Source of the DNA: Larinioides sclopetarius
Taxonomy: Eukaryota
Assembly: GCA_964023285.1 (NCBI GenBank)
Contig: CAXIEN010000093.1
Location: 2,503,739-2,567,738, forward strand
Direction of reading: 5' to 3'
Length of the DNA: 64,000 nt
The stretch's first letter is position 1; each line of letters opens with the position of its first letter. Made by a program: the position numbers and the translations under genes. Below the pieces are notes generated by a model, which worked only from the letters and a program-made list of their open reading frames with translations, had not been told where the DNA came from and did not search any database. Positions 7,060-62,989 of this stretch are shown here, in pieces.

Positions 7060-7846
7060 ACTTCCGAATGACTGAACTAATTTTGATGGAACTTGGTACA
7101 TGGGTTCCTCATAACCCACTTGAAGTACAGGGTTTGTGAATAAGGTCTTATAGAATGCCTCAGGGGAGGGGTGGATCAAAATCTCCAAGATCCATGTAAC
7201 AAACTGAATGTTTCGTAAATTTTACGGTTGTGCTGAAATTTGGTGCACAGGTTCCTCATTACACGATTTGAAGTGTTGGGGGTTTGAATAAGTTTTTATG
7301 AGTGAGTGACCCTAAATTTCAGAAATACATGCAATAATTTTTTCTATTTCTAAACGTAGCAATTTTTGTGAAACTTGGTACATGGGACCCTCATTATTTC
7401 TGATTTAAAGTACTGTAGGTTTAAATAAGCCCATGCCCTAAGGACGGGTGGGCCAAAATCCCCCAAATAAATCTAAGAAAAAGGCAGGTTGGCATGTTTC
7501 GCGATTTTGATGAAATTTGGCACACAGAATCCTCATTAGCTGACATGTATGAATAAATAGGCCTTAACAAAATCCCACCAGGGCAGGATTTGTCCACCCC
7601 CCAAACTAGTTACAAGTAAAAAAATAGGCCGGTTGGCTTGCTTTGGGATTTTAAGGATATTTGGTACATAAACTCTTCATTAGCTGACTTGTATAAGAAA
7701 ATAGGGCTTAAATCCTTTAGGGCAGGGTTGATCTAACCTCCAAATATACATGTAAAAAGTAGACCAGTTGACATTCTTCGATTTTAAGGAAATTCAATAC
7801 ACAGAATATTTATTAGTCGATTTGTTTGGTTAAACAGACCTTAATA
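7060..7846. repeat. Tandem satellite array with a unit of about 140-145 bp (left part)
   Basis: Five to six consecutive diverged units of the form 'aaatttggtacacagaatcctcattagctgac…aaataggccttaacaaaatccc…gggtgg…ggttggcatgtttcgcgattttgatg'. Confidence 0.8.
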
Positions 7847-9148
7847 CAAGGGTTGGAACTTTAATAATGTCAACTATTTATTTACATCTAATACAAAAGT
7901 GATACATGTCAGCAAGTCTTACAGTCCTTCAATATAGTTGCCAGCAATGTGTACAACCCGTTTCCAATGATGTGGAAGTCGTAGGACACCTATAGCAGTG
8001 CCTGTTCTGTTGATAATTTAAATGGAGCAGTCTACTGCTGCAAAAGTCACTGGAACCATTCTGAAGCGAATGCCATGAAGTGGTTCTTTCATCTTAGAAA
8101 TTAAGGCAAAGTCACAAGGGCTTAGATATGGGGAGTTTGGTGGATATACAGCATTTCCCAGCCCCATCGATCAAGTAAATCAGCCACAGCTTGTACTGCA
8201 TGTGGCTGAGCATTGTAATGCCAAATGATAAGAGCCTTCTGTAGAAGGTGTCGCCGATTTTTTCTCAAAGCTGGTCTGAGATGGTGTTCCAAAAATGAGC
8301 AGTAATACTGCACATTGATGGTCTGCTGTGGGGGAACGGTATGCGTTTGGATGACACCATCCCAGTCATACATGAGAATCACCATAACTTTCACATTGCT
8401 GGGGTTTTGACAAAGTTTCGAACTTCCTGGTGACCCGTAATGATGCCCTTCTTCAATTGGCGTTTCAGTTCAGCCTGGTACAAATCTCGCCCAGAGTAAT
8501 GTTTCAGCATAAGAAAGCCTCTCCTTCGCTCTCATAGCCCTGCAAGTGGGTTCGAGCAGCATTGTATTGTTGCCATTTCTGTCAAATTATGCGGAACCCA
8601 TCTTGAAGCAATTTTTCTAATGCCCAGGCTTCTTCAGAATGTGGAGCACACAGTCGAATGTGCAAATCCTGCCTGTCAGGACAGCTCACGAATCGTTTGG
8701 CGACGATCACTGCCCATTAGTGCGGCAACAGCATTCACTCCCGCTCTGCTAATACTAAGATGACCTGGCCAATGCATATCTGCTACATTTTGGCTTCCTT
8801 CGTTAAAGGCCTTTACCCATCTTACCACTGTTCTGTAAGGTAATGCAGATTCCCCGCAAGCCTCTTGAAGACCTTGATGATACTGTCATGCTGTACGACC
8901 TGTGACACATTTAATCTTTACCCAACTCCATTATTCTTCTTTGGAAAACATTGTGACAACACTTACTTTAGACCACAGGCTATTACAAGGCTCAGTGCTT
9001 CGCTTCACTCTGCATGCTCATGACATAGGAGAAGGGCGAGTTTTTTTTTGCTGAGAGTTAAGGTAGTAACTAACGTGGGGTATATGTGACATTCTTTGGT
9101 TTTGAGGTGTGGTGTGCAGTGTTGCCACTATTAAAGTTCCAACCCTCA
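7847..9148 (-). mobile_element. mariner-like element of about 1.3 kb, with terminal inverted repeats and TA target-site duplication; the transposase is degenerate
   Basis: Termini are 'CAAGGGTTGGAACTTTAATA…' at 7847 and '…TATTAAAGTTCCAACCCTCA' at 9148, inverted relative to each other, with TA at 7845-7846 and 9149-9150. The minus-strand ORF 8122-8394 encodes 'LIIWHYNAQPHAVQAVADLLDRWGWEMLYIHQTPHI', which matches the mariner C-terminal 'ILHDNARPH…LGWEVL.HPPY'. The remaining frames are disrupted. Confidence 0.85.
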
Positions 9149-9400
9149 TAAAACCCCTCAAGGAAGGGTAGGCCTAACCCCTAAATTCAAGCAACAAAAA
9201 GGTCAGTTTGAATGTTTCGCGATTCTTAAGAAATTCAGTACACAGTATCCTCATTAGCCTCATTGTACAAGTAAATAGGCTTTAACAAAATCCATCAATT
9301 GAGGGTGGGTCTAACCTTTCAAATACATATGACAAATAGGCTGGTTGGCATACTTTGCGATTTTGATGAAATTCAGTATACAGAATCTTCATTTTATACA
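9149..9400. repeat. Continuation of the same roughly 145-bp satellite array, to the right of the mariner insertion
   Basis: The units 'aaattcagtacacagtatcctcattagcctcattgtacaagtaaataggctttaacaaaatcc…' resume immediately after the mariner terminus. Confidence 0.75.
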
Positions 9401-9496: not shown

Positions 9497-9880
9497 AAAG
9501 TTTTTGTTTAAACTTTGGTATGAATATTTCTTTATAGCCAATATCAAGTACTATACGGAGGATAAATAAAGTGTAAGGTGTCCTTCCGGGTAGGTTCAGG
9601 CAATGTCTTCTAAAAACAAATAAAATATGAATTGATTGAACTGAAGTCTAATTCCCAGTTTTCAGCATATAAAACTGAAAATGGAGGTGTTAAATCTCTT
9701 TTTATCAATTCCTTAGATGATAATTATCAATAGGATAAGGTGAAATGTTTATATAGAACAGCTGGGGCAATTTTGAAGAAACATATTCAATTAATTGATT
9801 TAGGCATGTTTATTGCCAAAATATTATTTTTTTAAATGATTCTAACTTCATTTAACAACAACAATAAGGAGGTAACAGCT
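9497..9880 (+). repeat. Dispersed repeat copy 1 (direct repeat, pairs with 15690-16055)
   Basis: 'ctttatagccaatat…attgattgaactgaagtctaattcc…ggataaggtgaaatgtttat…caacaacaacaataaggagg' aligns with the second copy at about 75% identity. Confidence 0.6.
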
Positions 9881-12866: not shown

Positions 12867-15689
12867 TTAGTCAGAATGGCTAAAAGAAAACTGAACACAT
12901 AATAATAGAGAAAGTAAATGGAAGCATTAATTGGCAATTAGAATTCAAACCGAGAATTACATAAAAAGAATTAATTTGAAGTTGGTGCAATAAAATATTT
13001 CACTTCACAAAACTTATCAAATAAAGCAAAAAACATTTCACTGAATAAGGCTTTATTTGAGGAACGTTGAATAAACACAAAATCTTTAAATTAAGTAAGC
13101 AAAATTCTGCTTTGACGTTTATGTATAACAGAAAAAAAAACTTTATCAACCTCAGCTTTAAAAATACACTGGTGTGCAAAAATCAAGCAACATTTCAGGT
13201 AAGCAAGAAACTTGCAATTAATATAAAAACTATGGTTTGAAATCGGATATAAAAATATCTATGACATTTATTAGACTATCAACTTGCAAAAATTCGGTCA
13301 CGAGAGCAATTGAGGGAACCACCAGACAGGATGAAAAAAAAAGGGAACTTGGACCATCCTATTGCAAAAAAAGCAGATAACAAGGTGAAACTTTCACAAA
13401 TGGCAAGGTTTTGATGTGTATAATATTTATATGTATTTTCGTACACATTCACAAATATTTGGGAAGATATAAATGTTTATTTAATCGATTCCAAAGTGAC
13501 CCGTATGTTTTTTGCTAATGACGTGCAAAGTTTTCAATCGGAATCTACACAACTTTCAGAATAATTAGCAAAGAAAGGTTGTGTTAAAATTTGAAGAAAA
13601 TTAGAGTAACATTATAGGAAATACGAGTACATGTATTAACAATTTATACAATGCATGTGTGCTAGTAGCGTAATGTTTTATTGCACAGATTTAAACTCTG
13701 ATTAAAAACTAGGGGCAGCTTATCTAAAAATTCCAATTCAGTAAGTATAAAATTCGGAAAGATATTGGCCTTTGAATCGGATGAACTTGACTTTCACGTT
13801 TAAAGAAGCTAAGTGATGAAAAATCTTGCCCAATTTTATATTTTTTAAATTTTTAATTTCGAAGAGTAACATTGAATTTTATGAAAAGTAAACATTTTGA
13901 ATAATGAAGACGAAAAAATGAAGGAAAGGGGCTGCACCAAAATCACATTTTACGGCAGAAAAAATTTGCGTATGATTTCCAAATTTGACAGGATTGTTAC
14001 AGAATGTTTATTCTACAATCTAATGAAAACCATTTTTGTTTAAAACTTATAGAAGGGTCAAAATAAATACCGAAAGAGAGGGGTAATTAATAATTGCAAA
14101 ATCACAATTAGTCTTTCGATAACTATTTAACTGCTTTGAAACTTTGTGGTGATCTGCAAAATGCCTTTATCTACCAAATAATGCATTATTTTATTTGCAT
14201 TGATACTTTATTCAAATTAAAAAAAGCGAATAAATGCATTTAAATCATTTAAGTACTCTTTTTGTTTGCCAGAGGGCACTGCACCTGATACAATTACAAG
14301 AAAATCGCGGATTTTATCGAAAGGTCGCGAAAGAAAATCGCGGAAGGTCTCGCGGATTTTAATTTGGCGGTTGGATTCTCTAGTAGATTTTTTTTCGCCA
14401 AGCTTTAATATGGAAACCCTGGTTTACCACATGGGGTTCAATAATACAATGGTAGTTATGTTTTTGTCTGTGTGCTTGATAGTAAAGTTGCGAAATACAT
14501 TGTGAAAATGGGCTCCTGTTTTAAGCTATGGGGGATTCCACACTTCAGCTCGATTTTTTGACATTTGCAATGATATTTGTTAGATAATTTACCGAAGTTC
14601 GATATCTAATTAATAACTAGTACACAGTTATTCAATTAACAACTATGGTTATTTTAGTTTTTTTTTCTGATGGGAATTTCAAATAAAACTGGTCTATTTT
14701 CACAAGGTTGCACACTCATATAATGCAATAATTCATGCCTAGGCTCTTTGCCACCCGGAACGGAATTGAAAAATGCCGCTTAAAAATAGCTCACACAAAT
14801 ATCAAAATGAAGACTAATTGAAGGAAATAGAAAGACATTTTACATTTGAAACAGCACAGAAAATTACACAAAAAAGTGTGTAATTTTTCTTGTTTTTGTA
14901 TTTGTAGAATCATTGATAGCATCTCCTTAAAATCTGTTTTACTAGTTAAGATACATTTAACAGATAATATTGCATGAGCCCTTAATCACTCAATAATATT
15001 CCAATTATTATTATTTAAAATCCTCCATATTCCATAATTTAAATAAATATTTATTTTCGTGCTTCTCTATATTCTTATTGTGAGAAAAACATATATTAAT
15101 GATTACTTTTATCTTTTAATTCCTGATTTTTGTTGTGTAGAAGATATTCTCAAGATAATTTATAAACCAGTAAATAATCCAGTAAACTGAAAGATTATTA
15201 TTGTGGTGTTTTAATTTTGTTTATCAACTTATTTTAAGCTGACTAACATGCTTATGGGTATAAAATGTGTCATGAAAATGTAGCATTGAAATCTATTGCG
15301 TATTTATGTTAATCCAACCTAGTAGCAAATAAAAACTTCAAGGACACGAAAATGATCGCGAGTGAAACGTCGATAGCAATTTGCAGTTTAACCCTTTAAC
15401 ATACAATGACGTCTCTAACACGTGCATCGAATTACAGAATTTTCCTATCTAAATGTGTATTTAAGTCATCACAGTGATTAATTTTAAATACAAAAATCAC
15501 ATGGACATGCTTTATTGTCTCAAGTGGTCTTTACCATCTGAAATAGATTGAGATAATAAAATACATTCGAAATCGGCGGTGGCTTCTAATTAAGATGTTA
15601 AATATATTTGTATTTCAAAGGATTAAAACTACTTTTTAAGGGGGTGACATAAATTCAATCATTTATGAATGATTCAGTTTAAATTTTAT

Positions 15690-16055
15690 TTCTGATTCCT
15701 TTATAACCAATATTAAGTACAATGAGGAGAGGGGATGGAATAAATAAACTATAAGGAATCCTTCAAAATAAGTACGGGCAATGCCCCTTAAAACAAATAT
15801 AATACGAATTGATTGAAATGAAGCCTAATATACGCAAGTTTCAGCATGTCGAACTGAAGAAAGGAAAAGTTAAATCTGTTTTTATGAGTTCTTTAGAGAA
15901 TAACTATCGATAGGACAAGGTGAAATGTTTATTGGAACACCTGGAACAATTTTGCCAAAACTTGTTCCATTAACTAAATTAGACATGCTAAATACCAAAA
16001 TATTATTTTTTAATTACTCTTACTTTGTTCAACAACAACAAAAAGGATAGACATG
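15690..16055 (+). repeat. Dispersed repeat copy 2 (direct repeat of 9497-9880)
   Basis: 'ctttataaccaatat…attgattgaaatgaagcctaata…ggacaaggtgaaatgtttat…caacaacaacaaaaaggatag'. Confidence 0.6.
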
Positions 16056-17470: not shown

Positions 17471-20400
17471 GCCATATTCAGATGATGAAGATGGCAGCAT
17501 TCCTTTCCTTTAGGACATCAAAAGAAGAATCAGTGGGTAATATAATTATGAAATCTGAAGCCTTAAAAATCAAATACATTATTTTAATTGCATTTTCTTG
17601 AATAATATTCGAAAATTCAAGTTTTGAAATATCAGTTTGTGGAAGAACCCTTATCACTTAGCTTCTCTAAAAGTGGAAATGAAATTCTTCCGATTCAAAG
17701 AACGACAGCTTTCTGAATTTTGAATTTACTGAACTAGAGAAAAATTTTGCTATAAATTATTAAAAAATGTTGTTTAAAAAGATTGTTAAAAGCAAGGGGA
17801 TAATAGTGGGCAATTAACATTTAGGAAGCGGGAATCGCCAAAATACGGTTTGTTTTCAAAGTAACCCAAAATGAGGTTTTTTATTCAAAAATTTGATTTC
17901 TGTATTTATGAGTGAGGTTAAACCGGATACACTAATTAAAGCGCTATTTATTCTCTTTTCCAGAGGACAGATTTAAAATTCTGGTCATAGAGGCTGCATT
18001 GTTACCATTGAATTCACAGTGATAGTGAAAATGTGTTATAAGATGTTAACTGTCTCATGTTCATTTGTATTTCACGATCCTCACTTAGTAACCGTTATAG
18101 TTATAAATACTGTATTTCTTCTACCATATTTTATATTTCCTAAGGATTTGTAACCTATCAAAATAGAAAGATTAAGTCCTATTATTGCATAATTTTATTT
18201 TGTCTCTTGTAATTTCTTCTTGCGGTAAAACCGGATACTCCAAATGCCACAAAATCTTATCAGCCAGTAATAATAGTATCTTTCTCTGAAAGCGATACAA
18301 TTACATAAGAAGTTGATTGTTTATATTTTAATGATGTATTTTCTAATTTTATAATAAAATGGGTGTTTCAAGATTCTTATATTGATCTACGAAAACGGAA
18401 GTGGCGCGGATAAGGAAAACAACTGCCTTAATGTCAATTTATTTTTACTAATAATCTTAAATTATAACATAAAATGAAAATGCATGTAACTTTTTCGATG
18501 AAATTAGAATGAGCGAATTCAATTAATTCAAACTGCAACGTGTACGGTGCAAGGTCAAATTTTTAATTAATTATTTTTTATTAGTGTGACATATGCCCTG
18601 TAGTCCTCAAGCACAGCTCCAGGACTCTAAAATATCCCGTTTTTAAAAATAGAGCAACCCAAAATGACAATTTTAAACAAAGAACTAAAGTAAAAGAACC
18701 CTACGATATTCTATATTAACCCTGTGACGACAGAACATGCATACTTATCACACATATAATTAATCAGAAGCTTTCTATCGCATTTCTAACTTAAAATAAT
18801 CATTTATTTTCTCCTCAAAACAGGACATGTACTAAGTGTTTAGTAATGAAATAAGTGATCTTTTGTTTGTCCCTTTCAAAACGAGACATCCATAAATTTG
18901 AAAGTAATAGTAAGTATCTTGGGGAAAACGCATATTTCTTCACATTATTTATTAATGAAAATGATCAGAAAGGTACAGAAGAAGTTACATAATTTATGTG
19001 GTCTTGTATTTATCAGAAAAACACACTTCTTTATGTATATCTGCCGAAATTAGGTATCCGAGAAGTATTTGTGATAAAAAAAATGTCAGCAAGAAACGCT
19101 AAAATAGTGAATGACAAGAATTGGGAATAATTTTCATAAAGATAAAAGCTCGTAACGGGAAATTATAATCAATGAAATGGTTTGATATAAAATGGTATTT
19201 TATATGTAATAATGAATTATAAATAGGGTAGATATTTTAGATTAAGTTTATTCATACATTAGTTTTTATCATGACAAACAACAAAGAGAACAATCGTCAA
19301 AATTTTTTATTTTTCGCAACTTTTTACTTTTTTTCTGAAAACGAGACATTTAGCGATCCCGAAACTAGTTAAAACAGCACAGGCTCCCTTAAAATGGGAT
19401 AGACCCATTCAATATAGTCGCTCTATTCTAACTACATCACACGGCTTGCAATGACAGAATGCAACATTAAGAATATCTTAATCTAAAGTCGTTGAGTGCT
19501 ACTGTTCAAACATATATTCTATGCCTGCCCGGAAGAGGATCGTTTTTATGAATACATTGTGATCGAAATTAAGATCCCTGTTACAAGTCACAATTTATAA
19601 AACAAGTAAACTTTAAGAAATCCTGCCAAGAATTTCATTTTTCAATAAATTCTACACCTAATTAATTACAGAAACAGAAGTGTTTTCTTGAATCCTTACA
19701 ATATTTTATATAAAACTCTTACAAAGGCCAATTTAAAGATACAAAATAAATGGCCACTTTACGTATATTCGAATAAATTATATTGCGTACAAAATGCATT
19801 GGGACTGCGATGAAACAACGTGGAAATTATAAATACTGGTTTACCGTACTTTGTTTGTCGGCATCCTTCTGCATTCGTAAGAACAAAACTTCTTCTTTGC
19901 AAATCCATTTATAAATATGTGTGAAATTTTTTTCACTTAAAAATTGTGGTTTTTATAATAGAATATTTTACATATTGCAATCTGGTATGATTCGTTTTCA
20001 TAAAAGATAGCAATATCCTAGTGATAAATACTATGAAATTAAGAATCTAATAAATTTTTCAATTTTTTTCTTTTTTTGCTATTAATTTTAAAATGTTCGA
20101 ACTTATTTTGTTTTCTTGAATATGCAACCTGATTGCTAAGCAGAGTGGGCCACTGAAATTGAAGAGTGTTATCTGGCTATATTTAATTATAATTAAAATT
20201 GTTTGATACACTGTACAAGTAAATATCCATGTTTGGCTTTAAAAAAATTCTGTTTAATAAAAGTGCCTTCTGAATTAGTTCTAGCATGAATTCTGTCTTT
20301 CATGCTTTAATTCCTGCTGAGTTCAACAACACTAAGAATTATTCCTTTGTCACTAAGTTGCTGATAACAGGTTGAAAGTGTAGCTATTCGCGCTATCGTA

Positions 20401-29152: not shown

Positions 29153-29437
29153 AGAGCATTTTCATATTCCTTGGAAGGTCATAATAAAGGCATTACTTCT
29201 TGTTGTACTAGTCAAAATGGTGAAATTTTATCATGTTCTTTGGATGGTACTGTTAATTTATGGAAAATACCTGATGAAACAGAAGAATTTCATCCCGAAC
29301 ATTTAGCTAGCATAACTGATATTTGTTTATCTGTTACACAAAATAAAGTTGTCAGCTCAGATGCATATGGTAATGTTATTATTTGGAAATTGATCCTGTC
29401 GGCAGGTTCTCCTTTGATGTATGCAGGAAAGAAAACC
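29153..29437 (+). CDS. WD40-repeat protein gene exon (two WD repeats)
   Basis: Acceptor 'ttttttctatag' and donor 'gtgagt'. Encodes RAFSYSLEGHNKGITSCCTSQNGEILSCSLDGTVNLWKIPDETEEFHPEHLASITDICLSVTQNKVVSSDAYGNVIIWKL…KKT. This matches provided ORF 29171-29497. Confidence 0.8.
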
Positions 29438-29729
29438 GTGAGTATAAGGTTTTTATTTCATGATTTATTAATGACAAATTTTGTTAAGCATTATTAGTTT
29501 TCATTAAAGCTCAATTAAAATAGAAATTATGCTTTGCTGTTAAAAGCAGAAAATTATAGAAATAATTTCAATTGTCTTTAAAATATACAAAGAGTTTTTT
29601 CTATTAAAAATTTTTTCTATATATTGTATGTTGTTTTTTATTTAAAATTTGTCTTATGTTCTACATATAACACTTTTATTTAGATTACTGAAGTAGAGTT
29701 TTTCAGAGGTATAATGGAGCCAGAGCACT

Positions 29730-37439: not shown

Positions 37440-37795
37440 AGTATGATGCCGGCAAGTGTTTCGTAACAAATTGTTTTATTGGCTCGCCCATTGATAAAAT
37501 ACATGGGTAATTGATTGGCAACGGGTCGTCCGTTGTCGTAATACACGTCGCAAAATGCTTGGTATCAAGTCGCCCGCGATAATACGCATCGGGAAATGGT
37601 CGGAAAAACTGTCGGAAACAAGCCGCGGCGATCATCGCCCGGCGTTCTGCCGGGGGACAGAACCAATATCGGGACGACGTCGCAGGCGAGGTCGCCCCGA
37701 CCTACCGAGTCATGTAGGGCGATGTTTGGCCAATGATTGGCCAACGATCTTTTGCTGCTTGGGCGCACTGCTTATGCCCTATGAGAAATAAACGA
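37440..37795 (-). repeat. CpG-rich island B, inverted relative to A, with shared motifs
   Basis: The reverse complement reads 'gcgcccaagcagcaaaagatcgttggccaatcattggccaaacatcgccc…gatgatcgccgcggc…', sharing 'cccaagcagcaa.ag', 'attggccaa', 'atcgccc' and 'gatgatcgcc' with island A. Several ATTGG boxes are present. Confidence 0.55.
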
Positions 37796-39565: not shown

Positions 39566-39700
39566 GGTGAAGAATTCACACTATTTAGACAGTGAAGTAC
39601 TGTGTCTTGATGCAAGCTTGAAAACTGAAACAGTTGTGGCTGGTTTGAAGTCGGGAAATTTTGTCATTATCACCTCAGATAGGAAGAAGACATTTAATAT
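39566..39700 (+). CDS. WD40-repeat protein gene exon
   Basis: Acceptor 'ccttttcttgcag' and donor 'gtatgc'. The CA carried from the previous exon plus G gives CAG, then VKNSHYLDSEVLCLDASLKTETVVAGLKSGNFVIITSDRKKTFN, in the frame of ORF 39567-39773. Confidence 0.7.
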
Positions 39701-41781: not shown

Positions 41782-41940
41782 GATACTATTAGAGCTTCAA
41801 TGGAAGAAATTCGGAGCCCGTATCTGGGAAATGTTCCTGTTTTTATAAGTGCTTTCTTTTGTGCAAGTTTTGACAATGTTTATTGTGGTGATTCACAAGG
41901 TTGGTTAAGAAGATATTCAAATACTCCAATATCAAAAAAG
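41782..41940 (+). CDS. WD40-repeat protein gene exon
   Basis: Acceptor 'ttttttttgttgttaaag' and donor 'gtatgt'. Encodes DTIRASMEEIRSPYLGNVPVFISAFFCASFDNVYCGDSQGWLRRYSNTPISKK, matching ORF 41770-41982. Confidence 0.75.
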
Positions 41941-54000: not shown

Positions 54001-54901
54001 TGTGAACTAAATATGTGTTAAAGACTAAGAAATTTAACTTTTAAGCTACTAAATAAAAGCTTCTCAAATGTGGTAATTTTTAAGAAAAGTTGATTGTTGT
54101 AATATTATCATAATGTAAATAGAAAATCAAAACTCATTAGAATCAATGATATAAACTAAATTTGTAATCAAATAGGATATTAGTTCAAACTTTTGACATT
54201 ATATATGCAATGCAAGTATCACTGGCATGTTATTAAATTGCAAATAATGAGCTAAAAATTGTGCAAAGGAATAACAAATTTAAAGTTTAAGTTAATACAT
54301 AAAAATTAGTTAGAAATTAATAATATGCCAATTGAATAAAAGACAAAAAGGTTTATATAAATAATTTTATTTATTTCCATGAAGTAAATAACAGTAGCAA
54401 ACAATACAATTATTCAGAATATCATACACAAAATTTAAAACTATAAAAAAAATACACATTTCATGTCAAATATATTTTTTTTCTTATTTTAAGATTACAA
54501 AGGTGAACAATTTCACTAACCTTTAAAAATTGAACCTATACTTTAAAACTATACTTTGGAAGTGTATAATTCAATTATTTAAAATATAATTTTTTTTCAC
54601 CCTTAATTTAGTTTTGTTTGTTTCCCCTTAAACATTTACATATTTCTTTTTTGAAAACTGTAATACCAAGCATTTTTTTCTGTCAATTTATTAGTTTTCT
54701 TACTAGATTTCTTTTCCTCAGATAAAGAATTCTTAAAAAGTGTTCTTTGTTTTCTTTAATTCTTAGAATCTACAGTTATATCATTTTCACTTAACAATAT
54801 AGTTATTTAATAAACTATTTGTTGCTGACCTTAGAATGATTAAAGACAAATATCATGCCCATTCACACAAACATTAAAAGAAAGGAAAACATCTTTTGTT
54901 A

Positions 54902-57900
54902 CACTGTTAAAACTGAAGGTGACAAACCGGCACCTTTTGGTCACCTAGGGTGAAAAGGCAGTACCATTTGGAACCTTAGGGTGCTTTAGAGGCTTGGAAA
55001 TGTGGTTGGGGTGCTGCTTGGCACCCCACAGGGTGAAAGAAGCTAATAAGGGTGCATTTGACTTTATATTTGTAGAAATGTGGCACCTTACAGGGTGCCC
55101 AACTCCTTGCGCATGCGCTTTTATACGCACTGAGTAAAAGAACTCGTAACGAACACTCAAAAATTTCCGTATTCTCAGTGCTAAACGTCTTTTCAATGCC
55201 CGTTTTCCCCTTTTTACGAACTCATCCCTTCATTGCCGTAAGAAACGCTCGAGCAAGATGTACCGCTGAGACTTGCGCATGCGCGAAAAGCAAGCAACCG
55301 TCAGATGCAAAAAAGCAATGGCGTCGCGTTGTTTTGATGTGTTCTGTATGTTTTGCCTATTAACATTAACTTCGCTTACGAATTCGTTGTAGTTATTTTT
55401 AAATATAAAACATGTACAATGTTGACTTAATTAAGAGCAAGAGCAGCAAATTCGTTTTCTTTTCTGTTTTCATACGCCCAGATTTTAGCAGCAACACGAT
55501 CCGTATTTTCAACAAGAACTCGGATTGTGATCTTCGAAGAAAACCGGAATTAAGTAAGTACTTTTAACTAAATATTTACATTCTTTTCTGTGAATATGAT
55601 ATATAAATTGAAAGTTGAAATAGAGAATAATGTATATATATTCATTGTACTTGTAAATATAGAATAGTTGACTTCGGAAATTTATTAGCGTTGTTGCTAT
55701 ATTATTGCTTTTTGTATCCTCAGTGATTAAAAAAAAAGATAAGATGACTTGCAAAATGAGGTGCATACTGCATGAACTCCATTTTAGCAAAATTGAAATA
55801 TATTTAATTGATTAATTTGTAGCTAGAGGCAGTATGACATTGAGTCTTTTTTTTTAATATGAATCTTTACCCTTAACTCTAAAAAAAGTGACAATTTTTT
55901 TTAGTGAAATATTTCATTTATTGTTTAAAGAGTGTCTCAGACTTTAGACGATGGCTTCATTTTCACTAGTTAGATATTTTTTACCCTAAGCTAACAAAAA
56001 TCTGAATTTTAAACTTAATTGAGTTGTTCAGAAGTCATTGCAATTAAGAAAAAAAAAAAAAACTACAAATTGAGGAAATTCATGATTTTTCATAAAATAA
56101 TTTTTAACATTTTTGGTTTATGAATGGGATTAGTGAAGATATTCTTATACTAAAGCAATGAGTGTCTAATTTAATACCCGGAAATTATTATTAATCCCAT
56201 GGAATTTATAAAAAAAGCAGATAACATGAAAAATTAGATTTGTGCACTTTGGCTTGAATGACTCACTAGATGTGCATTTATTCTTACACTATTTATTTTA
56301 TTCAAATGAGTTTCAAGTTATAATCTCTGGATATATGAATAATTTTTATGAGAAACAGTATAAAAATGCCTCCTCTTATTATAAAATGTTCTTAGTTAAA
56401 ATTTTCCAATGTTACTCCCTGATGACAAATGCACCCCTTTTCAATATTTGCTATAATATATAAAAGTGGGCAGAGTATAGAAAGTCTTCTTAGGATTAAG
56501 ATTAATATGCTTTTACAGTATTTTTTTAAAACTACAATAAGAAACTTAGTTCTATTAATTCATTCAAATTCATTTGCTATAGTGAATATTTGACAGTTTT
56601 TATTTATATACCCTTTGGCAGATTTTTATTATGCTTTCTGTGACATTAATATTCATCAAAACCTCTCCAAAAAATGTTTAGTCCATTTATAAATTCTTAA
56701 TTTAACAATCTCGGTAATTCCTAAATAAAGTAAAATATCTCATTTAACAAATTCAGCTTTATTTAGTTTTTAAATAAAAGAATTAATTTAAGTATATGAA
56801 AAAGAAAACATATAACGATTTACTTAAAAAAATATAAAATGTTTAGCATGTATTATATTTTAACTATATTGTACCTTCGCGAAGAATGCTGAGCCAATTT
56901 GACAGATTTGCTGAGGTTTGCGGAAAAGCTCATAAATATCATTGATAGAGGAATAATTTTTACAAATGCTTGGCACTTCTGTATGTAAAAATATTTGAGA
57001 CAAAATATTTTAACCTCATTGTTTTGGCACAGAATAATGCCTCATGTGGGAAAAGTTATGCTAAAATAACTCCTTCATAGAGACCTTTGAAATTGCCATT
57101 ATAGATCAAATATACAAATGCATACTTGTCCAGTATCTTAGTGGAGGGAAGAAGTCAGCGTAACGTACATGGGGAGGATCGTTTTTGTTTGATCCTGAAT
57201 TGCCCTCAAATTAAAAAAATTCTTCGGAACGATCTCGACTTATTTACACAAATATGTCAATTCTCCAAAAAATATAATTTTTTTACTGAAGTGAAAATCA
57301 TTCTACAGGAAACTTGTGCTATTCTGTGGCATTGTTGCTGTGTCAACAATCTTCTGCCCCGGGATTAATATAATTATTCAATTTATTTGAAAATGTAAAA
57401 TTTTAAACTGTAACTGTAAACAGCAAATGAGATTTTCAGCTTCTGAATATTATCAATTTTATTTTATATAGTAAGGTAGGGCAGTAGTAAATTGATGTCG
57501 TTTGAATATGTTGTAGTTTTTTTTTACCTGTAAGATTCATACAAATAATTTTTTGGAATGCCTTATTTGTCGCTACTGTATAAATATGTTTTTATATTAA
57601 CAGAAAAACATCAGAATTGCCTAGATTTATCATAGTTCAAATGTCTTTTTTTATTTTTAGTTTGATATTTATCTGAGCCTGTATTATTATGATTTATCTT
57701 TCTGAGCCTGATGTAGTTTAGGAACATGTATTTCTTTTTTCTAGCTGACACATTTTGTCAAATTATGGTATAAATTATAATAAAAGTTAAAATAATTATT
57801 GAAATAAAAAAAAAATGTTTTTTTTTCAATTCTTTAAGTTTTTGATTATTGTATTTTTAATCCAAAGACTTCATGCGAAACAACGAGACGATTTAACGGA

Positions 57901-60900
57901 TAATATTAACTTGAATTATGATTATATTTTCTAAACAACAAAATAACATAATACGATGAGGGATATTGTAAACAAAATCATTAATTTATTAAAATATTTA
58001 TATTCTTAAAAGATAACATCATTTGATGTATGTTTCTTAGTCCTTTTTCTATGAGATTGGACTGCAGTTTTAGAAGATATATCTTCTAATCTAAATTTTA
58101 ACACTATGAAATCTTTTTAAGATGAAATGTTATTGGCTGCAATGGAAACAACTACTGGATATCAAGAAAAAAATGCCTGAATAGCAACTACATGAAGTAC
58201 AAAAATAATGGTATCTTTCAATTTTTATGTATAAAATTAAATCTTAGTAGAAACCAAGAGTTAATCCTAATAAATAAAAATGTTGTAATGAATATTGGTT
58301 TGGCTGATTACCGAATATTTTGCAGCCAAATATCTACTTTTCGAAAACATTTCTTTTTTTAATGGTAAATAATATATTTCTTAAATTTTAAATAAAAAAT
58401 TAATGATTTATTGGTTTTATTAAATATTAATGCCTTGGTTTATTTTGTATTTGTCACCTTAATTCTAAGAATAAGATATTGTTGCTTTCACAAATCTGAA
58501 TAAATTATATTTGGGTTAAAGTTCAGATAACGGTGCGTGGTTAATTCTAACCTATAAATAAGATGATTCTTTGACGCCAAGAATACGATAGATTGGCGAC
58601 GTGTAATCATTGTTTGGTATGCGCAGAAATGTCTTAAATTTTGTCAGGTTTGCGCAAGAAGACTTGGAATTCTGTTTCGCGTTCGTTGATTGCATTTCAT
58701 TTGTCATGTGACTTAAAGATGCATTCTGATTGGTCGAGTTCTTAGAATTTTCATTTTAAAACAATATCGTTTGCTTTTCAGAATTTGGAATTCGGGTTTT
58801 TAATTTTCGCCAGTTAATAGATGATTTAGTTTCGCTAAAGCAGAAAAGGTGAGTGAAACGTTAGTGTTTCAATTGATAATTTGTATTTTTAATTTCCTAA
58901 ACTTACCATTAACTAAGAGGTTTTCCAGTAACTAACTGAAAATGAATTTTAAAAAAGAACGAAGGATTCCATACGTTCACTTTATTAGCGAAGCTACGAT
59001 TGGCCCACTATGCTGAAAGCGAAGCCCCTGAAGTTTTTTTTAGTTCAAAAAAATTGCCCGGTACACGTTTGCAATGCCGCAGGCATTGCGTGCACAGCGG
59101 AAAAAAATTCATCATGTTTTAGAAATAATTGCGTTCTCAGAAGAGAGAAGAAAAAAACAATAACCAAAAAATCAGCGGAATTTGCGCGCGAGAAACGAAA
59201 AACAAATTCTACAATCGCATTCCACCGTCGCAAAGCTATCACTCTATTGGCGACATAAAGTTAGCGACCATTTTCGTAGAAGTAGCCGCGCACCGTTATC
59301 TGAACTTTTACCTATATTTGTATATACTTTTACCTATATTATATTAATTAGATATTTTTTAGATATTATATTTTTTAGAAAATATAACCTAGATATGATA
59401 GAATTTTGCTTGCCATTCTTTATATTTTTCATTTAAATATAAGAAATTTCCCCAATCAATGTCAAGTCATTTCCTTTAAAATATATATTAATTATTCTCC
59501 GTCACTTCTATTTGCCACCCAGTCAAATATATGTGCTTTATAATCACACCTACAGTTAAAAGGTTAAAAGTTATTTAACTTCATAATGCTTACTCTACTC
59601 TTAAAATTTAATGAATGTTAGATTTTTTATAAGTATATTGAAATGTAATTCTGTAATATAAATAAATTCTAACTCTTCTTAAGTGATTCTTTGTTAAATA
59701 TATATTTTATAAATATTATTCTAAATTTATTTGAATGAATATATCTTTAGCATTTGTCAAAATAGCTATTGTATATGCTATGTATTCTTGCTTGCATTAT
59801 AGGCTTTACAATCATAAGAAATACATAAAATTATTAAATTCATTTGTAGGCTATATATTTCATAGTTTTAAATATATATAAATTGTATAAAGCTATATCT
59901 ATGTAATTTAAAAGTGAGTAAATGATATTTTTTAGATGAAAAATGTAATAAAATATAATTCTGAAATATTTTTATCTTAAAAAATTACTATCTGGAAAAT
60001 ATACAGCCAAATATCTGCTGAGTATTTGGTTAGCCGAATATTTGGCAGAAAAACCAAATACTCGCTACATCCTTAATAAATATATATATTTATTTTAGTA
60101 AAAGTAGATTCATCGTGTTTTCTCACAAATTATTTAATGTCATGATGCATTGATTTAAATTGGAGGATATTTACAAATGTGTTAAATTGTTGTTATAAGT
60201 AAATATTTTGCTTTTTTAAAAAATTATCTTTTGTAGTTTAGCTTAAAATTTGTTTAGTGTTCTGTTAAAGTAATTAAATTGAATGCTGCATTTTAATAAT
60301 AACGACAAAATTATTGTAGCTTTATCATCTTAATATTATAAATAATTTCTTAATAATTCAAAAGGTTACTGGAATTTGTTTATAAAATTTTTTAAGTATC
60401 TAAAGTACTTTCTTATACATTTGTATTTATAGGGTGAATACCGGCCCAAACAGACGAGATCAGGCTTCAGCATTTTCTTGAAGAAAAAATCCTTCGGCAT
60501 CAAGAGGATATGTGGATATTTGTCATAATGTAAAGAACACAGACCATTCAATAAATATGTTGTATATATCTGTTTTGTCTTTATTGTGTTCACACCCATC
60601 TGGAATTTTTTTTAAAGAATTGATAAATTGATTTTCTAAATACTTTTATCTTTTGGAAGTGTTTCTGTTGCCTGAAAGAATAATATATTTTTTTTAATGC
60701 TTGACCTGTATCTATTTGGTAATACTATTGTGTGTGCCTGTATTTTATTTAAAAGTACCACAATCATTAAAATTATCTACTAACTTTTATTTTTATATTT
60801 AAAAGCTTAAAGATTAATTTGGTATTTAATTGTGTTGTATTTAGGTTAATGCATAAAATGAAATGTCAAAAATACAATTTATTTTTGTTTTAAAAAGTAC

Positions 60901-62068
60901 AAAATAAAAAAATTGTATTAACAAAATTTTAAATGTAATTCATCAGCAGTATTAATAAAAAAGTATTTTTTTCCTATTTCTGCCAGGAATTGACTGAGCA
61001 ATAATATAACTACACATTTATGATATTTAGTAACAGTATATTACAGAATTTATATCTGAAAAAGTATTCGTTTCTCTCGTCAATATTTCATTTATCTATA
61101 ATTTTAATTTATTATTTTAAATCAATCTTCTCATTTTTACATACACAAACTTTTTTCTAGCAGCAGTTTTATTGTGTGATGTGATGCAAGCAACTTAGTA
61201 TCGAACTTCAATAAAAAATGGCCAAGAAAATAATTGAACAGTGAAAAATTATTTAAAATAGATACCTTTAATTAATTTTATGTGTGAAGTTTAAAAATTT
61301 ATTAATATTTCTCAAATTCAATCAAAAGTATCCTTTATAACTTATTATTTTAAATACGTGCTTTTAAAAAACATTTTTGATAATTGCTTTAGTTCTTGAA
61401 AAATGATTAAAAAAATTAATATAATCATGAAAAGTTTATTCATAAAGAATAAATATATGCATTAATATTTTAGCGCGAGAAGGAATAAAGTGATCTAAAA
61501 GCAGAATAGGGTAAATTTTTTAGAGAATGGTGTTAAAAACATAATACCAAGATAAAAGGTAAGTAAATATTGAATGGAAATTTAAAAAAAAATATTTAAA
61601 AACCTTTTATTCATTTAAAATTTAATCTATTATATATACTGAAAGTAAAATGGGCAAATATATTATATCCTCTGCATCTTAGTTTTCTAGAAATATTGAA
61701 TATGCTTTTAAATAAAAGGCACTTGAATCTGAATTAAAAGATACAATGTGCCTCTTAATTTTCAAAGGCACAAAAATTCAAAATGTGCCTCTTATATCAG
61801 AGGCAGTTTTAAGAGTGTACATTGAGGGTGCTACTAGGCACCTTGAATTAAGGGTGCCGTCCTTTCACCTTTGTGGGGTGCCACTAAGCACCTTGAATTA
61901 AGGGTGCCGTCCTTTCACCTTTGTGGGGTGCCACTTAGCACCTTGAAGTAGGGTGCCAATCTTTCACCCTAGTTAAGGGTGCCAATTTTTCACCCTTAGG
62001 GGTGACGCTGGTGAGACAAGCTTTTCACCCCTTAAAGGTGCCAAATGTCACCTGTAGTTTTAACAGTG
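54902..62068. mobile_element. 7.2-kb element bounded by about 35-bp terminal inverted repeats with flanking TA duplications; putative non-autonomous DNA transposon with subterminal repeats
   Basis: Left end 'TA|CACTGTTAAAACTGAAGGTGACAAACCGGCACCTTT'. The right end, reverse-complemented, reads 'TA|CACTGTTAAAACTACAGGTGACATTTGGCACCTTT'. Both ends are followed by arrays of 'AGGGTGAAAG…GGCACCC' subterminal repeats, and the right side carries about 2.5 tandem 58-bp units at 61819-61990. No intact transposase ORF was found inside. Confidence 0.6.
58527..59300. repeat. Foldback: roughly 90-bp inverted repeats flanking about 600 bp of CpG-rich sequence, nested inside the 7.2-kb element
   Basis: 58527-58620 reads 'aagttcagataacggtgcgtggttaattctaacctataaataag…gacgccaagaatacgatagattggcgacgtg'. 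59215-59300 is its inverted partner ('…caccgtcgcaaagctatcactctattggcgac…cgcgcaccgttatctgaactttt'). The interior holds a TATAAATAA box at 58553, CCAAT/ATTGG boxes, and a 'aaaag|gtgagt' splice-donor-like site at 58848. Confidence 0.55.
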
Positions 62069-62989
62069 TACTAAAATATTTTTTCTACAAAATTAACAAC
62101 TTCGGAATGATGATTCAAAACTGGAATAAATTTATCCTCATATTTTTTGCTAATTAGCTTTTTTACTACTGTATATGTTTGGATAACAGTATTTACTACT
62201 ATTTTAATAGGATATAATATAAGCCCTCTATCATTTTAATCTATTAGTTTTCCATAAATCTTTTTCCCAATCTGAGCAATGTAATAAATACGAAAATGCA
62301 ATAAATCATTGTTTATACGATATTTGTTGCAAGGTCCCGCAATTCAACTTTCCACCAGGCCCCACTTTTTCTAAGACCTGCCATGGAGAACAGCTTTTAC
62401 GGATCATTCACGGACAATTCATAAGCGGTCTATGGTAAAGAAATCAGATAATTCTCGGACAACCCATAGACAGTCTATGGTAAAAACAGATAATTCTCGG
62501 ACAATCCATAGACGGTCTATGGTAAGGAGACCACTCATGATGTCAATCTAATGCTGAGGAATGGACTGTCGGCCTGTACCATGCAATATCGCTGTTTCAT
62601 TTCGAACCGCACAAAATGCTTTGACCCAACAAAAGGAAAACGCTCATTATCGCTGCAGACCTCACATAGTCTCTGAAATTATTTAGATTGACGTTTGCAA
62701 CAGGAAATTTCGATTTTAATCCACGACTGCTGATCAGTTGTGTAAATATGGCTTAGAGAGATAAAAATGGCACTCTGCGCTTTAACACTGTACAAAAACT
62801 TCCCTTCAAAATGGATCCACTGTTTTATACAATCTACGATTATAGGTTTATCGAACTAAAGCGCTTGAACAGAAAATACAAATCATTGAAAGTCGGACAA
62901 CAGTGGAGTTAATCTAACTTCCATTCACTGGTTATTCCAGTCTTGGTTTAATCAGTATAATAAACATTAAAATTTTTCGTTGAACACAC

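What the first reader, a model, noticed from the sequence alone, without database searches (positions are those of the whole stretch)
58527..59300. Foldback structure with TATA, CCAAT and a splice donor, in the form of a promoter plus first exon, inside a transposon
Roughly 90-bp inverted repeats enclose a CpG-rich core. A TATAAATAA box at 58553 is followed by ATTGG boxes and, about 290 bp on, by 'AAAAG|GTGAGT'. A second CpG block (58990-59300) faces it. This layout looks like a bidirectional promoter cassette, or a captured 5' exon carried by the 7.2-kb element.
Basis: seen in the sequence. Interest (0 to 1): 0.55.

Follow-up and report, generated by a model that had tools for sequence, protein, structure and literature searches.

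The report
Small nested non-autonomous DNA transposon
The flagged segment is a 799-bp cut-and-paste transposon remnant with inverted ends and a perfect 8-bp target duplication, inserted into an older repeat; its promoter-like and splice-like motifs are weak evidence, so it looks like ordinary repeat DNA.

Summary
It ends in 24-bp terminal inverted repeats (GGTTAAAGTTCAGATAACGGTGCG, 23/24 matched). With gaps, these extend at about 73% identity to about 100 bp. A perfect 8-bp direct duplication, TATATTTG, flanks the unit, with an empirical chance of about 7e-5. This is the signature of an independent cut-and-paste transposon insertion. It has no coding capacity, no Pfam, Rfam or protein match, and no second copy in the window.

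GG termini plus an 8-bp duplication fit Merlin or Mutator-like (MULE) elements. They do not fit hAT, P or true Foldback elements. The element lies inside a 7.2-kb inverted-repeat-bounded unit as a later, nested insertion, not as cargo of that unit.

The promoter reading is weak:
- The TATA box is at chance level (P=0.61).
- The four CCAAT boxes, all on one strand, are borderline (P=0.013).
- The consensus donor AG|GTGAGT is rare (P=0.02), but no ORF runs into it, and the putative exon contains short upstream ORFs.
- A second donor-like site faces the first from the other strand, so the layout is convergent, not a divergent bidirectional promoter.

Copy number and transcription could not be tested, because the source genome is not in any available collection. 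This is an ordinary finding of low interest.

The parts
58506..58513 (.). Left copy of the 8-bp target-site duplication, TATATTTG
   Evidence: Read directly from the sequence. It is identical to 59313-59320. The empirical rate of an 8-mer match at a fixed offset in this window is 7.3e-5.
58514..58537 (+). Left terminal inverted repeat core, GGTTAAAGTTCAGATAACGGTGCG, with a 5'-GG terminus
   Evidence: It matches the reverse complement of 59289-59312 at 23 of 24 positions. The 19-mer core occurs exactly twice in the window, in inverted orientation, against 0.01 expected. Over 36 bp the match is 32/36, E 1.6e-7.
58514..58613 (+). Extended, degenerate left arm of the inverted repeat (about 100 bp)
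   Evidence: The gapped alignment with 59211-59312 has 107 columns, 78 matches and 12 gap columns. The inner part scores 26 against 20.3 +/- 2.4 in shuffles, in the same register from both ends.
58553..58561 (+). TATAAATAA (TATA-like), 40 bp inside the left terminus; the right arm has no counterpart
   Evidence: TATAAATA occurs 34 times on the two strands of the window. P=0.61 for at least one TATAAA in shuffles of the element. In the arm alignment, the right arm reads CTACGAAAAT at this position.
58592..58596 (-). CCAAT box (ATTGG on the + strand), 1 of 4, all in the same orientation
   Evidence: Four on one strand has P=0.013 against shuffles.
58729..58733 (-). CCAAT box (CTGATTGGTC on the + strand), 2 of 4
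58847..58854 (+). Consensus 5' splice-site-like octamer AG|GTGAGT (boundary 58848|58849)
   Evidence: It is the only AGGTGAGT in the window, and one of two AGGTRAGT on both strands. P=0.022 in shuffles. No ORF reaches it. The putative exon contains short ORFs that end in stops.
58901..58907 (-). Second donor-like heptamer, G|GTAAGT on the minus strand, facing the first
   Evidence: Two of the three GGTRAGT in the whole window (both strands) lie in this element. P=0.0013 for at least two in shuffles, a post-hoc test.
58851..58989 (.). AT-rich, CpG-poor centre between the two CpG-rich arms; includes a possible 80-nt intron at 58849-58928
   Evidence: 3 CpG, GC 28%. The candidate acceptor ttttccAG at 58921-58928 has a short pyrimidine tract and failed my stricter acceptor filter.
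58999..59003 (-). CCAAT box (CGATTGGCCC on the + strand), 3 of 4
59071..59089 (.). Perfect 8-bp palindrome with a 3-nt loop, GCAATGCC-gca-GGCATTGC
   Evidence: Read. The hairpin is kept in both the MFE and centroid DNA folds. Its function is unknown.
59246..59250 (-). CCAAT box (TATTGGCGAC on the + strand), 4 of 4
59211..59312 (-). Extended right arm of the inverted repeat
59289..59312 (-). Right terminal inverted repeat core (reverse complement GGTAAAAGTTCAGATAACGGTGCG)
59313..59320 (.). Right copy of the 8-bp target-site duplication, TATATTTG
54885..54937 (+). Left inverted repeat of the older 7.2-kb host unit, followed by GGGTGM repeats at 54948-55093
   Evidence: The IR is 53 bp at 81% identity, E 1.5e-6. 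The motif clusters are shown. I saw no TSD, and there is no Pfam domain in 54.5-62.5 kb.
62034..62085 (-). Right inverted repeat of the 7.2-kb host unit, preceded by GGGTGM / 50-bp tandem repeats at 61826-62000

Best explanation
Positions 58514-59312 are one copy of a short, non-coding, non-autonomous cut-and-paste (class II, TIR) DNA transposon. By structure it is Merlin-like or Mutator-like.

Shown directly:
- It has 24-bp GG-terminated terminal inverted repeats.
- It is flanked by a perfect 8-bp target-site duplication.
- It encodes no recognisable protein or RNA.
- It sits inside an older 7.2-kb inverted-repeat-bounded unit.

Inferred mechanism:
- A DDE transposase encoded elsewhere in the genome bound the two TIRs, excised the element and re-inserted it at TATATTTG through an 8-bp staggered cut. 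Repair of that cut produced the duplication.
- The insertion is younger than its host unit. Its TSD is perfect and its TIR matches 23/24, against 81% for the host IR. Its CpGs have not decayed (o/e about 1.6, against 0.58 for the window).

Most likely reading of the promoter-like and exon-like signals (inferred, about one chance in three):
- The TATA box 40 bp inside the left end, the one-strand CCAAT boxes and the AG|GTGAGT donor are leftovers of the promoter and untranslated leader of the autonomous parent's own gene, retained in an internal-deletion derivative.
- Otherwise they are chance motifs.
- They are neither a host exon carried by the 7.2-kb unit nor a bidirectional promoter.
For: - The TIR core 19-mer occurs exactly twice in the window, inverted, against 0.01 expected.
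- The terminal 36 bp match 32/36, E 1.6e-7. The gapped IR runs to about 100 bp.
- The perfect 8-bp TSD lies exactly where the IR ends, at a chance rate of 7.3e-5.
- The single-strand DNA fold pairs the two ends: -114.8 kcal/mol, z = -5.1.
- There is no Pfam domain in any frame of 54.5-62.5 kb.
- The element's ORFs have no homologue among 5.8 billion proteins.
- There is no Rfam or tRNA hit.
- Published Merlin hallmarks are TIRs of 24-462 bp, a conserved terminal 5'-GG and an 8-9-bp TSD (PMC8101967). Merlin is widespread in protostomes.
- Insect MULEs have 8-9-bp TSDs, TIRs mostly over 100 bp, a GGG terminal motif, and many non-autonomous derivatives with heterogeneous interiors (PMC5225508, PMC5499845).
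- TATAAA is at chance level, and no ORF enters the donor.
- The TATA box is present only in the left arm, as expected if one end carried a promoter.
Against: - Only one copy is visible, so repetitiveness, the hallmark of a transposon family, is not shown.
- No partner transposase was found. The window has no DDE_Tnp_IS1595 or MULE domain. The superfamily is therefore assigned from end structure alone, and Merlin and MULE cannot be separated.
- The strand-biased CCAAT boxes (P=0.013) and the two facing GGTRAGT sites (P=0.0013, post hoc) are more than a featureless MITE predicts.
- CpG o/e of about 1.6 exceeds neutral expectation, and youth alone does not fully explain it.
- The 'parental promoter remnant' step has no direct support, because no parent element is available.
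Confidence: 0.82

Rival explanations
1. Pack-type element. A non-autonomous MULE-like or Merlin-like transposon has captured a host gene's CpG-rich promoter, non-coding first exon and the start of intron 1 between its TIRs (transduplication). This is essentially the reader's 'captured 5' exon', except that the 799-bp element carries it, not the 7.2-kb unit.
For: - Non-autonomous MULEs often carry host gene fragments (Pack-MULEs; PMC5225508).
- The element has a consensus AG|GTGAGT donor, unique in the window.
- CCAAT boxes are enriched on one strand.
- The arms have CpG o/e of about 1.6 in a CpG-depleted window.
- An AT-rich, intron-like stretch follows the donor.
Against: - The putative exon has no coding content and carries several short upstream ORFs.
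- TATA is at chance level.
- A second donor-like site faces from the other strand, which a single captured 5' end does not explain.
- No parent sequence occurs elsewhere in the window, and no protein-level trace was found.
- Other CpG-rich patches of similar density occur in the window, so CpG richness is not specific to promoters here.
Confidence: 0.08
2. Functional mobile promoter/exon module. The left arm is an active TATA/NF-Y promoter that transcribes a non-coding first exon ending at 58848. That exon can splice into downstream host exons, or the two arms drive convergent transcription that produces double-stranded RNA.
For: - TATA lies 40 bp inside the end, a geometry seen in autonomous transposons (own knowledge of the P element, not tested here).
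- CTGATTGGTC-type NF-Y sites are present.
- Donor-like sites are rarer than chance predicts.
- The CpGs are undecayed.
Against: - No transcript data are available.
- TATA is statistically uninformative (P=0.61).
- The candidate acceptor for the 80-nt intron is weak.
- The putative exon RNA shows no unusual structure, z = -0.24.
- No poly(A) signal was seen by eye downstream on the + strand within the element.
Confidence: 0.07
3. The element belongs to another 8-bp-TSD superfamily (hAT, P, Zisupton or Novosib) and is a MITE of that family.
For: By own knowledge, the 8-bp TSD is also typical of hAT and P elements, and hAT is the commonest 8-bp-TSD superfamily in animals. The TIR contains CAGATAACGG 11 bp inside the end.
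Against: - The inverted repeat, and the TSD that abuts it, place the terminus at GG, not at the YAG of hAT or the CA of P (terminal motifs from own knowledge).
- If the end were at CAG, the 8 bp outside it would be inverted, not direct.
Confidence: 0.08
4. This is not a mobile element. It is a chance inverted repeat in AT-rich DNA, or a local palindromic duplication.
For: Only one copy is seen. No match was found in any searchable collection.
Against: - The GC-containing 20-mer AAAGTTCAGATAACGGTGCG is perfectly inverted.
- A perfect 8-bp direct repeat lies exactly at the IR boundaries, chance 7.3e-5.
- There is a sharp composition step at both boundaries: CpG o/e 1.6 inside against 0.2-0.3 outside.
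Confidence: 0.02

Closest known systems
Non-autonomous elements of the Merlin superfamily (IS1016/IS1595-related DDE transposons)
   Same: The TIR starts with 5'-GG. The TIR length (24 bp core, extendable with mismatches) lies within the published 24-462 bp range. The TSD is 8 bp. The element sits in an animal genome, and Merlin is widespread in protostomes (PMC8101967).
   Different: No DDE_Tnp_IS1595 transposase is found in the element or anywhere in the window. No sequence similarity to a named Merlin family could be tested because Repbase and Dfam are not available. Membership therefore rests on end structure only.
Non-autonomous Mutator-like elements, including Pack-MULEs (for example Muta1NA derivatives in Aedes aegypti)
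   Same: The TSD is 8-9 bp, the terminus is G-rich (Muta1: GGGTCTACCC), and the TIRs are about 100 bp. Short derivatives share only the ends and have heterogeneous interiors that sometimes include host gene fragments (PMC5225508, PMC5499845).
   Different: The arms have no subterminal tandem repeats. Only 24-36 bp of the arms are well conserved. The terminus is GGT, not GGG, and is not palindromic. No MULE transposase was found.
MITEs (miniature inverted-repeat transposable elements) in general
   Same: The element is short (799 bp), has TIRs and a TSD, has no coding capacity, and is inserted in AT-rich non-coding DNA nested in another repeat.
   Different: High copy number, the defining population feature, could not be tested. 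At 799 bp it is at the upper end of the usual MITE size range. Unlike many MITEs it is richer in GC and CpG than its surroundings.
Foldback (FB) elements of Drosophila
   Same: Both have inverted-repeat ends that can snap back. The DNA fold has z = -5.1.
   Different: By own knowledge, FB arms make up most of the element and are built of tandem sub-repeats. Here the arms are at most about 100 bp of 799, have no tandem repeats, and the halves are otherwise unrelated.
RNA polymerase II TATA/CCAAT promoter with a first exon, and CpG-island bidirectional promoters
   Same: It contains a TATA-like box, four CCAAT motifs, CpG-rich sequence and a consensus donor 296 bp downstream of the TATA.
   Different: TATA is at chance frequency. 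There is no ORF and there are several uORFs. The two arms converge rather than diverge. No transcript evidence is obtainable here.

Membership tests
Merlin superfamily | TIRs beginning with 5'-GG | tested here: met
   Both termini are GG (GGTTAAAG... / reverse complement GGTAAAAG...). The criterion comes from PMC8101967.
Merlin superfamily | 8- or 9-bp target-site duplication | tested here: met
   Perfect TATATTTG at 58506-58513 and 59313-59320; chance rate 7.3e-5.
Merlin superfamily | TIR length 24-462 bp | tested here: met
   The core is 24 bp (23/24), 36 bp at 89%, and about 100 bp in the gapped alignment.
Merlin superfamily | DDE_Tnp_IS1595 transposase in the element, or in an autonomous relative sharing the TIRs | not testable with these tools
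   None is found in the element, the 7.2-kb unit or the rest of the window. The source genome cannot be searched, so a trans-acting partner cannot be looked for.
Mutator-like elements (MULE) | 8-10-bp TSD | tested here: met
   The TSD is 8 bp. The criterion comes from PMC5225508.
Mutator-like elements (MULE) | Long TIRs (typically over 100 bp) | tested here: inconclusive
   The arms reach about 100 bp only with gaps, at 73% identity. The inner 60 bp are about 2.4 sd above shuffles.
Mutator-like elements (MULE) | Subterminal tandem repeats in the TIR (common in insect MULEs, not universal) | tested here: not met
   TRF finds no tandem repeat inside 58514-59312.
Mutator-like elements (MULE) | MULE (MURA-type) transposase in a related autonomous element | not testable with these tools
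   None is found in the window. The source genome is not available.
hAT superfamily | 8-bp TSD with TIRs starting YARNG (own knowledge) | tested here: not met
   The TSD length fits, but the termini are GGTTA/GGTAA, not (C/T)A(G/A)NG.
Foldback elements | Long arms that make up most of the element and are composed of tandem sub-repeats (own knowledge) | tested here: not met
   There is no inverted similarity beyond about 100 bp and no tandem repeats.
MITE | Short element with TIRs and a TSD and no coding capacity | tested here: met
MITE | High copy number in the genome | not testable with these tools
   There is a single copy in the 64-kb window. No eukaryotic genome collection is available. 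Scans of viral, metagenome and prokaryotic collections gave only chance 20-mer matches or nothing.
Pol II promoter plus first exon | Core promoter motifs present above chance | tested here: inconclusive
   TATAAA P=0.61. Four CCAAT on one strand P=0.013, and by total count P=0.054.
Pol II promoter plus first exon | Exon ending in a 5' splice site that joins downstream exons | tested here: inconclusive
   The consensus AG|GTGAGT is present (P=0.022). No ORF enters it, and the nearest acceptor (58928) has a weak pyrimidine tract.
Pol II promoter plus first exon | A mapped transcription start and spliced transcripts | not testable with these tools
   No RNA-seq, CAGE or EST resource for this genome is available.
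Bidirectional (divergent) promoter | Two transcription units diverging from a shared CpG-rich core | tested here: not met
   The CpG-rich blocks are at the two ends and the centre is CpG-poor. The two donor-like sites point inward, towards each other.
Pack-MULE / transduplicated gene fragment | The interior matches a host gene located elsewhere | not testable with these tools
   No match is found elsewhere in the window, and there is no protein-level match. The genome and transcriptome are unavailable.

The most novel reading that the evidence does not exclude
The element is a mobile 'promoter plus leader exon' module. On this reading, a Merlin- or MULE-type MITE has arms that carry NF-Y/TATA promoter activity and untranslated exons ending in consensus splice donors in both orientations (58848 on +, 58907 on -). 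Copies landing in introns could then donate alternative first exons or cryptic cassette exons to host genes, or produce convergent transcripts that feed small-RNA silencing of the family.
Probability: 0.06. Interest if true: 0.45.

Novelty: new member of a known kind. Interest (0 to 1): 0.12.

Why it matters
The main value is for annotation.
- The segment should be masked as a nested class II transposon. It should not be called a promoter, a CpG island or a first exon.
- Its perfect TSD gives a clean example of a young insertion inside an older repeat, which provides relative dating.
- If the family proved to be transcribed, it would be one more case of a transposon spreading promoter and splice signals. 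That phenomenon is already well documented, so even then the interest would be moderate.

Tried and rejected
1. Related DNA elsewhere.
- The 20-mer TIR core gave 0 hits in viral contigs and 0 in GTDB genomes.
- It gave 3 metagenome contigs that match only the 20-21-mer and nothing else in the element. These are chance hits.
- The internal palindrome 22-mer gave nothing.

2. Protein-level proxies for other copies.
- The 82-aa ORF at 59010-59258 is not on record.
- Ten element ORFs concatenated gave no hit at E <= 0.01 among 5.8 billion proteins.

3. Source organism.
- The host WD40 exon found no word-sharing homologue.
- The exhaustive HMMER search returned only generic multi-WD40 proteins.
- None of those proteins aligns to a second exon in the window.
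- The piggyBac remnant is closest to hymenopteran PGBD4-like proteins at 59-67% identity. That only suggests an arthropod.

4. RNA genes. Rfam (E-value mode on 54-63 kb, gathering mode on the whole window) and ARAGORN found nothing.

5. True foldback. Rejected: there is no inverted similarity beyond about 100 bp and no tandem repeats.

6. Structured RNA in the putative exon. Rejected, z = -0.24.

7. Introner-like element. Considered by eye and rejected. The termini do not supply usable GT...AG sites, and the good donors are 335 and 405 bp from the ends.

8. Literature search for the TIR strings returned only unrelated primers. My recollection of terminal-motif codes (GGNRM for Merlin, YARNG for hAT) could not be verified in the library, so it is treated as own knowledge.

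9. The phage, plasmid and E. coli collections were not searched, because they cannot contain this eukaryotic repeat.
Full report
**Context.** The window is AT-rich (29% GC) and CpG-depleted (o/e 0.58). It looks like animal DNA.
- It carries a WD40 exon with GT-AG boundaries at 29153-29438.
- Two further probable exons, read by eye only, lie about 10 kb downstream on the + strand.
- It also holds a mariner remnant (8125-8469) and a frameshifted piggyBac remnant (2075-2780). The nearest named relatives of the piggyBac remnant are hymenopteran, at 59% identity.
- The species could not be identified, and its genome is not in any collection I could search.

**Checking the observation.**
- TATAAATAA lies at 58553.
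- ATTGG lies at 58592 and 58729, and also at 58999 and 59246.
- AAAAG|GTGAGT has its boundary at 58848|58849.
- A second CpG-rich block covers 58990-59311.

The inverted repeat is real but was placed slightly too far inward. The 19-mer AAGTTCAGATAACGGTGCG occurs exactly twice in the window, in inverted orientation, against 0.01 expected. The pairing extends outward to GG at 58514 and CC at 59312.
- The terminal 24 bp match 23/24.
- The terminal 36 bp match 32/36 (E 1.6e-7).
- A gapped alignment carries the similarity to about 100 bp per arm: 107 columns, 78 matches, 12 gap columns.
- The inner 60 bp are only about 2.4 sd above shuffles.
- Beyond 100 bp the two halves are unrelated: score 15 against 13.7 +/- 2.4. 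There are no tandem sub-repeats.

So this is a TIR element, not a foldback. The CpGs lie in the two arms (o/e 1.68 and 1.56), and the centre (58851-58989) is AT-rich with 3 CpG. 'CpG-rich core' is therefore not accurate.

Immediately outside the two termini lies a perfect 8-bp direct repeat, TATATTTG (58506-58513 and 59313-59320). In this window an 8-mer matches at a fixed offset with frequency 7.3e-5. TIRs plus an abutting target-site duplication are the signature of an independent cut-and-paste insertion. The composition steps sharply at both boundaries, from CpG o/e about 1.6 inside to 0.19-0.28 outside. As single-stranded DNA the element folds by pairing its ends: -114.8 kcal/mol, z = -5.1.

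**Coding and RNA content.** There is none.
- The six-frame translation has no Pfam domain.
- Ten concatenated ORFs from the element have no homologue in 5.8 billion proteins.
- The 82-aa ORF is not a recorded gene product.
- There is no Rfam family or tRNA.
- There is no second copy in the 64 kb.

The element is therefore non-autonomous, and a transposase encoded elsewhere must have moved it. That step is inferred.

**Which kind of transposon.**
- An 8-bp TSD with GG termini matches the published hallmarks of Merlin: TIRs of 24-462 bp, a conserved terminal 5'-GG and an 8-9-bp TSD (PMC8101967). Merlin is common in protostomes.
- It matches insect Mutator-like elements almost as well. These have 8-9-bp TSDs, TIRs mostly over 100 bp, the Muta1 terminal motif GGGTCTACCC, and hundreds of short derivatives with unrelated interiors (PMC5225508, PMC5499845). 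However, the subterminal tandem repeats typical of those MULEs are absent here.
- hAT and P elements also make 8-bp duplications. By my own knowledge their ends start YAG and CA, which these ends do not.
- Without a partner transposase, and none is in the window, I cannot separate Merlin from MULE. I rate them about 45% and 35%.

**Relation to the 7.2-kb element.** The larger unit is plausible.
- A 53-bp inverted repeat at 81% identity (54885-54937 and 62034-62085) is backed at both ends by clusters of GGGTGM repeats that occur nowhere else in the window in such density.
- I found no TSD and no coding capacity for it.

Because the 799-bp element has its own perfect TSD and much better-preserved ends, it is a later, nested insertion. 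It is not cargo 'carried' by the larger unit.

**The promoter and first-exon reading.** I tested the motifs against 3000 dinucleotide-preserving shuffles of the element.
- TATAAA is expected by chance (P=0.61). TATAAATA occurs 34 times in the window.
- CCAAT occurs four times, all on the minus strand: P=0.013 for one strand and 0.054 for the total.
- At least one AGGTRAGT has P=0.022. This is the only AGGTGAGT in the window.
- A second donor-like site, G|GTAAGT, lies on the minus strand at 58907, only 58 bp away and facing the first. Two of the three GGTRAGT sites in the entire window are in this element (P=0.0013, post hoc).

Against a working exon:
- No reading frame runs into either donor.
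- The putative 265-nt leader contains several short ORFs that terminate.
- The nearest acceptor (ttttccAG at 58928, giving an 80-nt intron) has a weak pyrimidine tract.
- The leader RNA has no unusual structure, z = -0.24.

The geometry is convergent, because both arms point inward. That is the opposite of a bidirectional promoter. CpG richness is also not specific. Similar CpG-dense patches occur at 29.7-30.2, 37.4-37.8, 55.1-55.5 kb and elsewhere.

**Best explanation and rivals.** I am confident (about 0.8-0.85) that this is a young, nested, non-autonomous TIR DNA transposon.
- For the motifs, the most economical reading is that they are leftovers of the autonomous parent's own promoter and untranslated leader, kept in an internal-deletion derivative. 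The TATA-like box is present only in the left arm, which fits one end having carried a promoter. This is inference without direct support.
- Plain chance is nearly as likely.
- Capture of a host promoter and exon (Pack-type) remains possible at about 0.08.
- A currently active mobile promoter/exon module remains possible at about 0.07.
- A non-mobile chance palindrome is very unlikely, at about 0.02.

**What I could not do.** I could not count copies in the source genome, compare with Repbase or Dfam, or look at RNA data. These three checks would settle the family, the origin of the interior and the promoter question.

**Verdict.** The object is an ordinary kind of repeat, of low interest (0.12). 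It is best filed as a new, unclassified member of a known kind.

Noticed in passing
window 59304-59347: The 15-mer ACTTTTACCTATATT (the last 9 bp of the element plus the first 6 bp of its TSD) recurs 22 bp downstream, at 59304-59318 and 59326-59340. A chance 15-mer repeat is very unlikely. It may be a small tandem duplication or a repair scar at the insertion site.
   Followed up: partly
window 54885-62085: A 7.2-kb unit is bounded by a 53-bp inverted repeat at 81% identity. GGGTGM repeat arrays cluster at 54948-55093 and 61826-62000, the latter forming a 50-bp tandem repeat. I saw no TSD, and there is no Pfam domain. It is probably an old non-autonomous transposon whose interior is AT-rich filler.
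   Followed up: partly
window 62396-62524: A 42-bp tandem repeat (3 copies, 71-100% identity) lies just outside the right end of the 7.2-kb unit.
   Followed up: no
window 37440-37790: This is the most GC- and CpG-rich patch of the window (about 54% GC, up to 32 CpG per 300 bp). It contains the palindrome GGCCAATGATTGGCC and several ATTGGC motifs. It has no flanking inverted repeat. It could be a genuine promoter CpG island or part of another repeat.
   Followed up: partly
window 58521-58526 and 59302-59307: Each TIR of the 799-bp element contains GTTCAG reading inward, which is acceptor-like. Together with the inward-facing donor-like sites, the element could in principle be exonised in either orientation. 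The pyrimidine tracts are poor.
   Followed up: no
window 7187-9393 and 8125-8469: A mariner transposase remnant lies on the minus strand (Pfam Transposase_1, E 1.4e-4, below the curated cut-off). It sits among five copies of a 74-nt repeat.
   Followed up: partly
window 2075-2780: A frameshifted piggyBac transposase remnant. The best hits are Logan and JGI fragments at 67-71% identity. The best named relatives are hymenopteran PGBD4-like proteins (Habropoda laboriosa, 59%).
   Followed up: partly
window 29153-29438, about 39567-39700, about 41782-41940: Probable + strand exons of a host gene, with roughly 10-kb introns full of repeats. Only the first is confirmed as WD40-coding (Pfam WD40, E 1.4e-9); the other two were read by eye. 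No orthologue was found in the protein collections.
   Followed up: partly
window 13732-13843 / 17627-17738; 9680-9832 / 15860-16011: A 112-nt inverted repeat pair (75% identity) lies 3.8 kb apart. Two direct repeat pairs (78-82% identity) lie 6.18 kb apart. These are probably further nested or duplicated repeats.
   Followed up: no
L001, L002, L003 (metagenome contigs): Three marine or environmental contigs contain the exact 20-mer of the TIR core but share nothing else with the element. L001 and L003 appear to be related to each other. I treated these as chance matches.
   Followed up: yes
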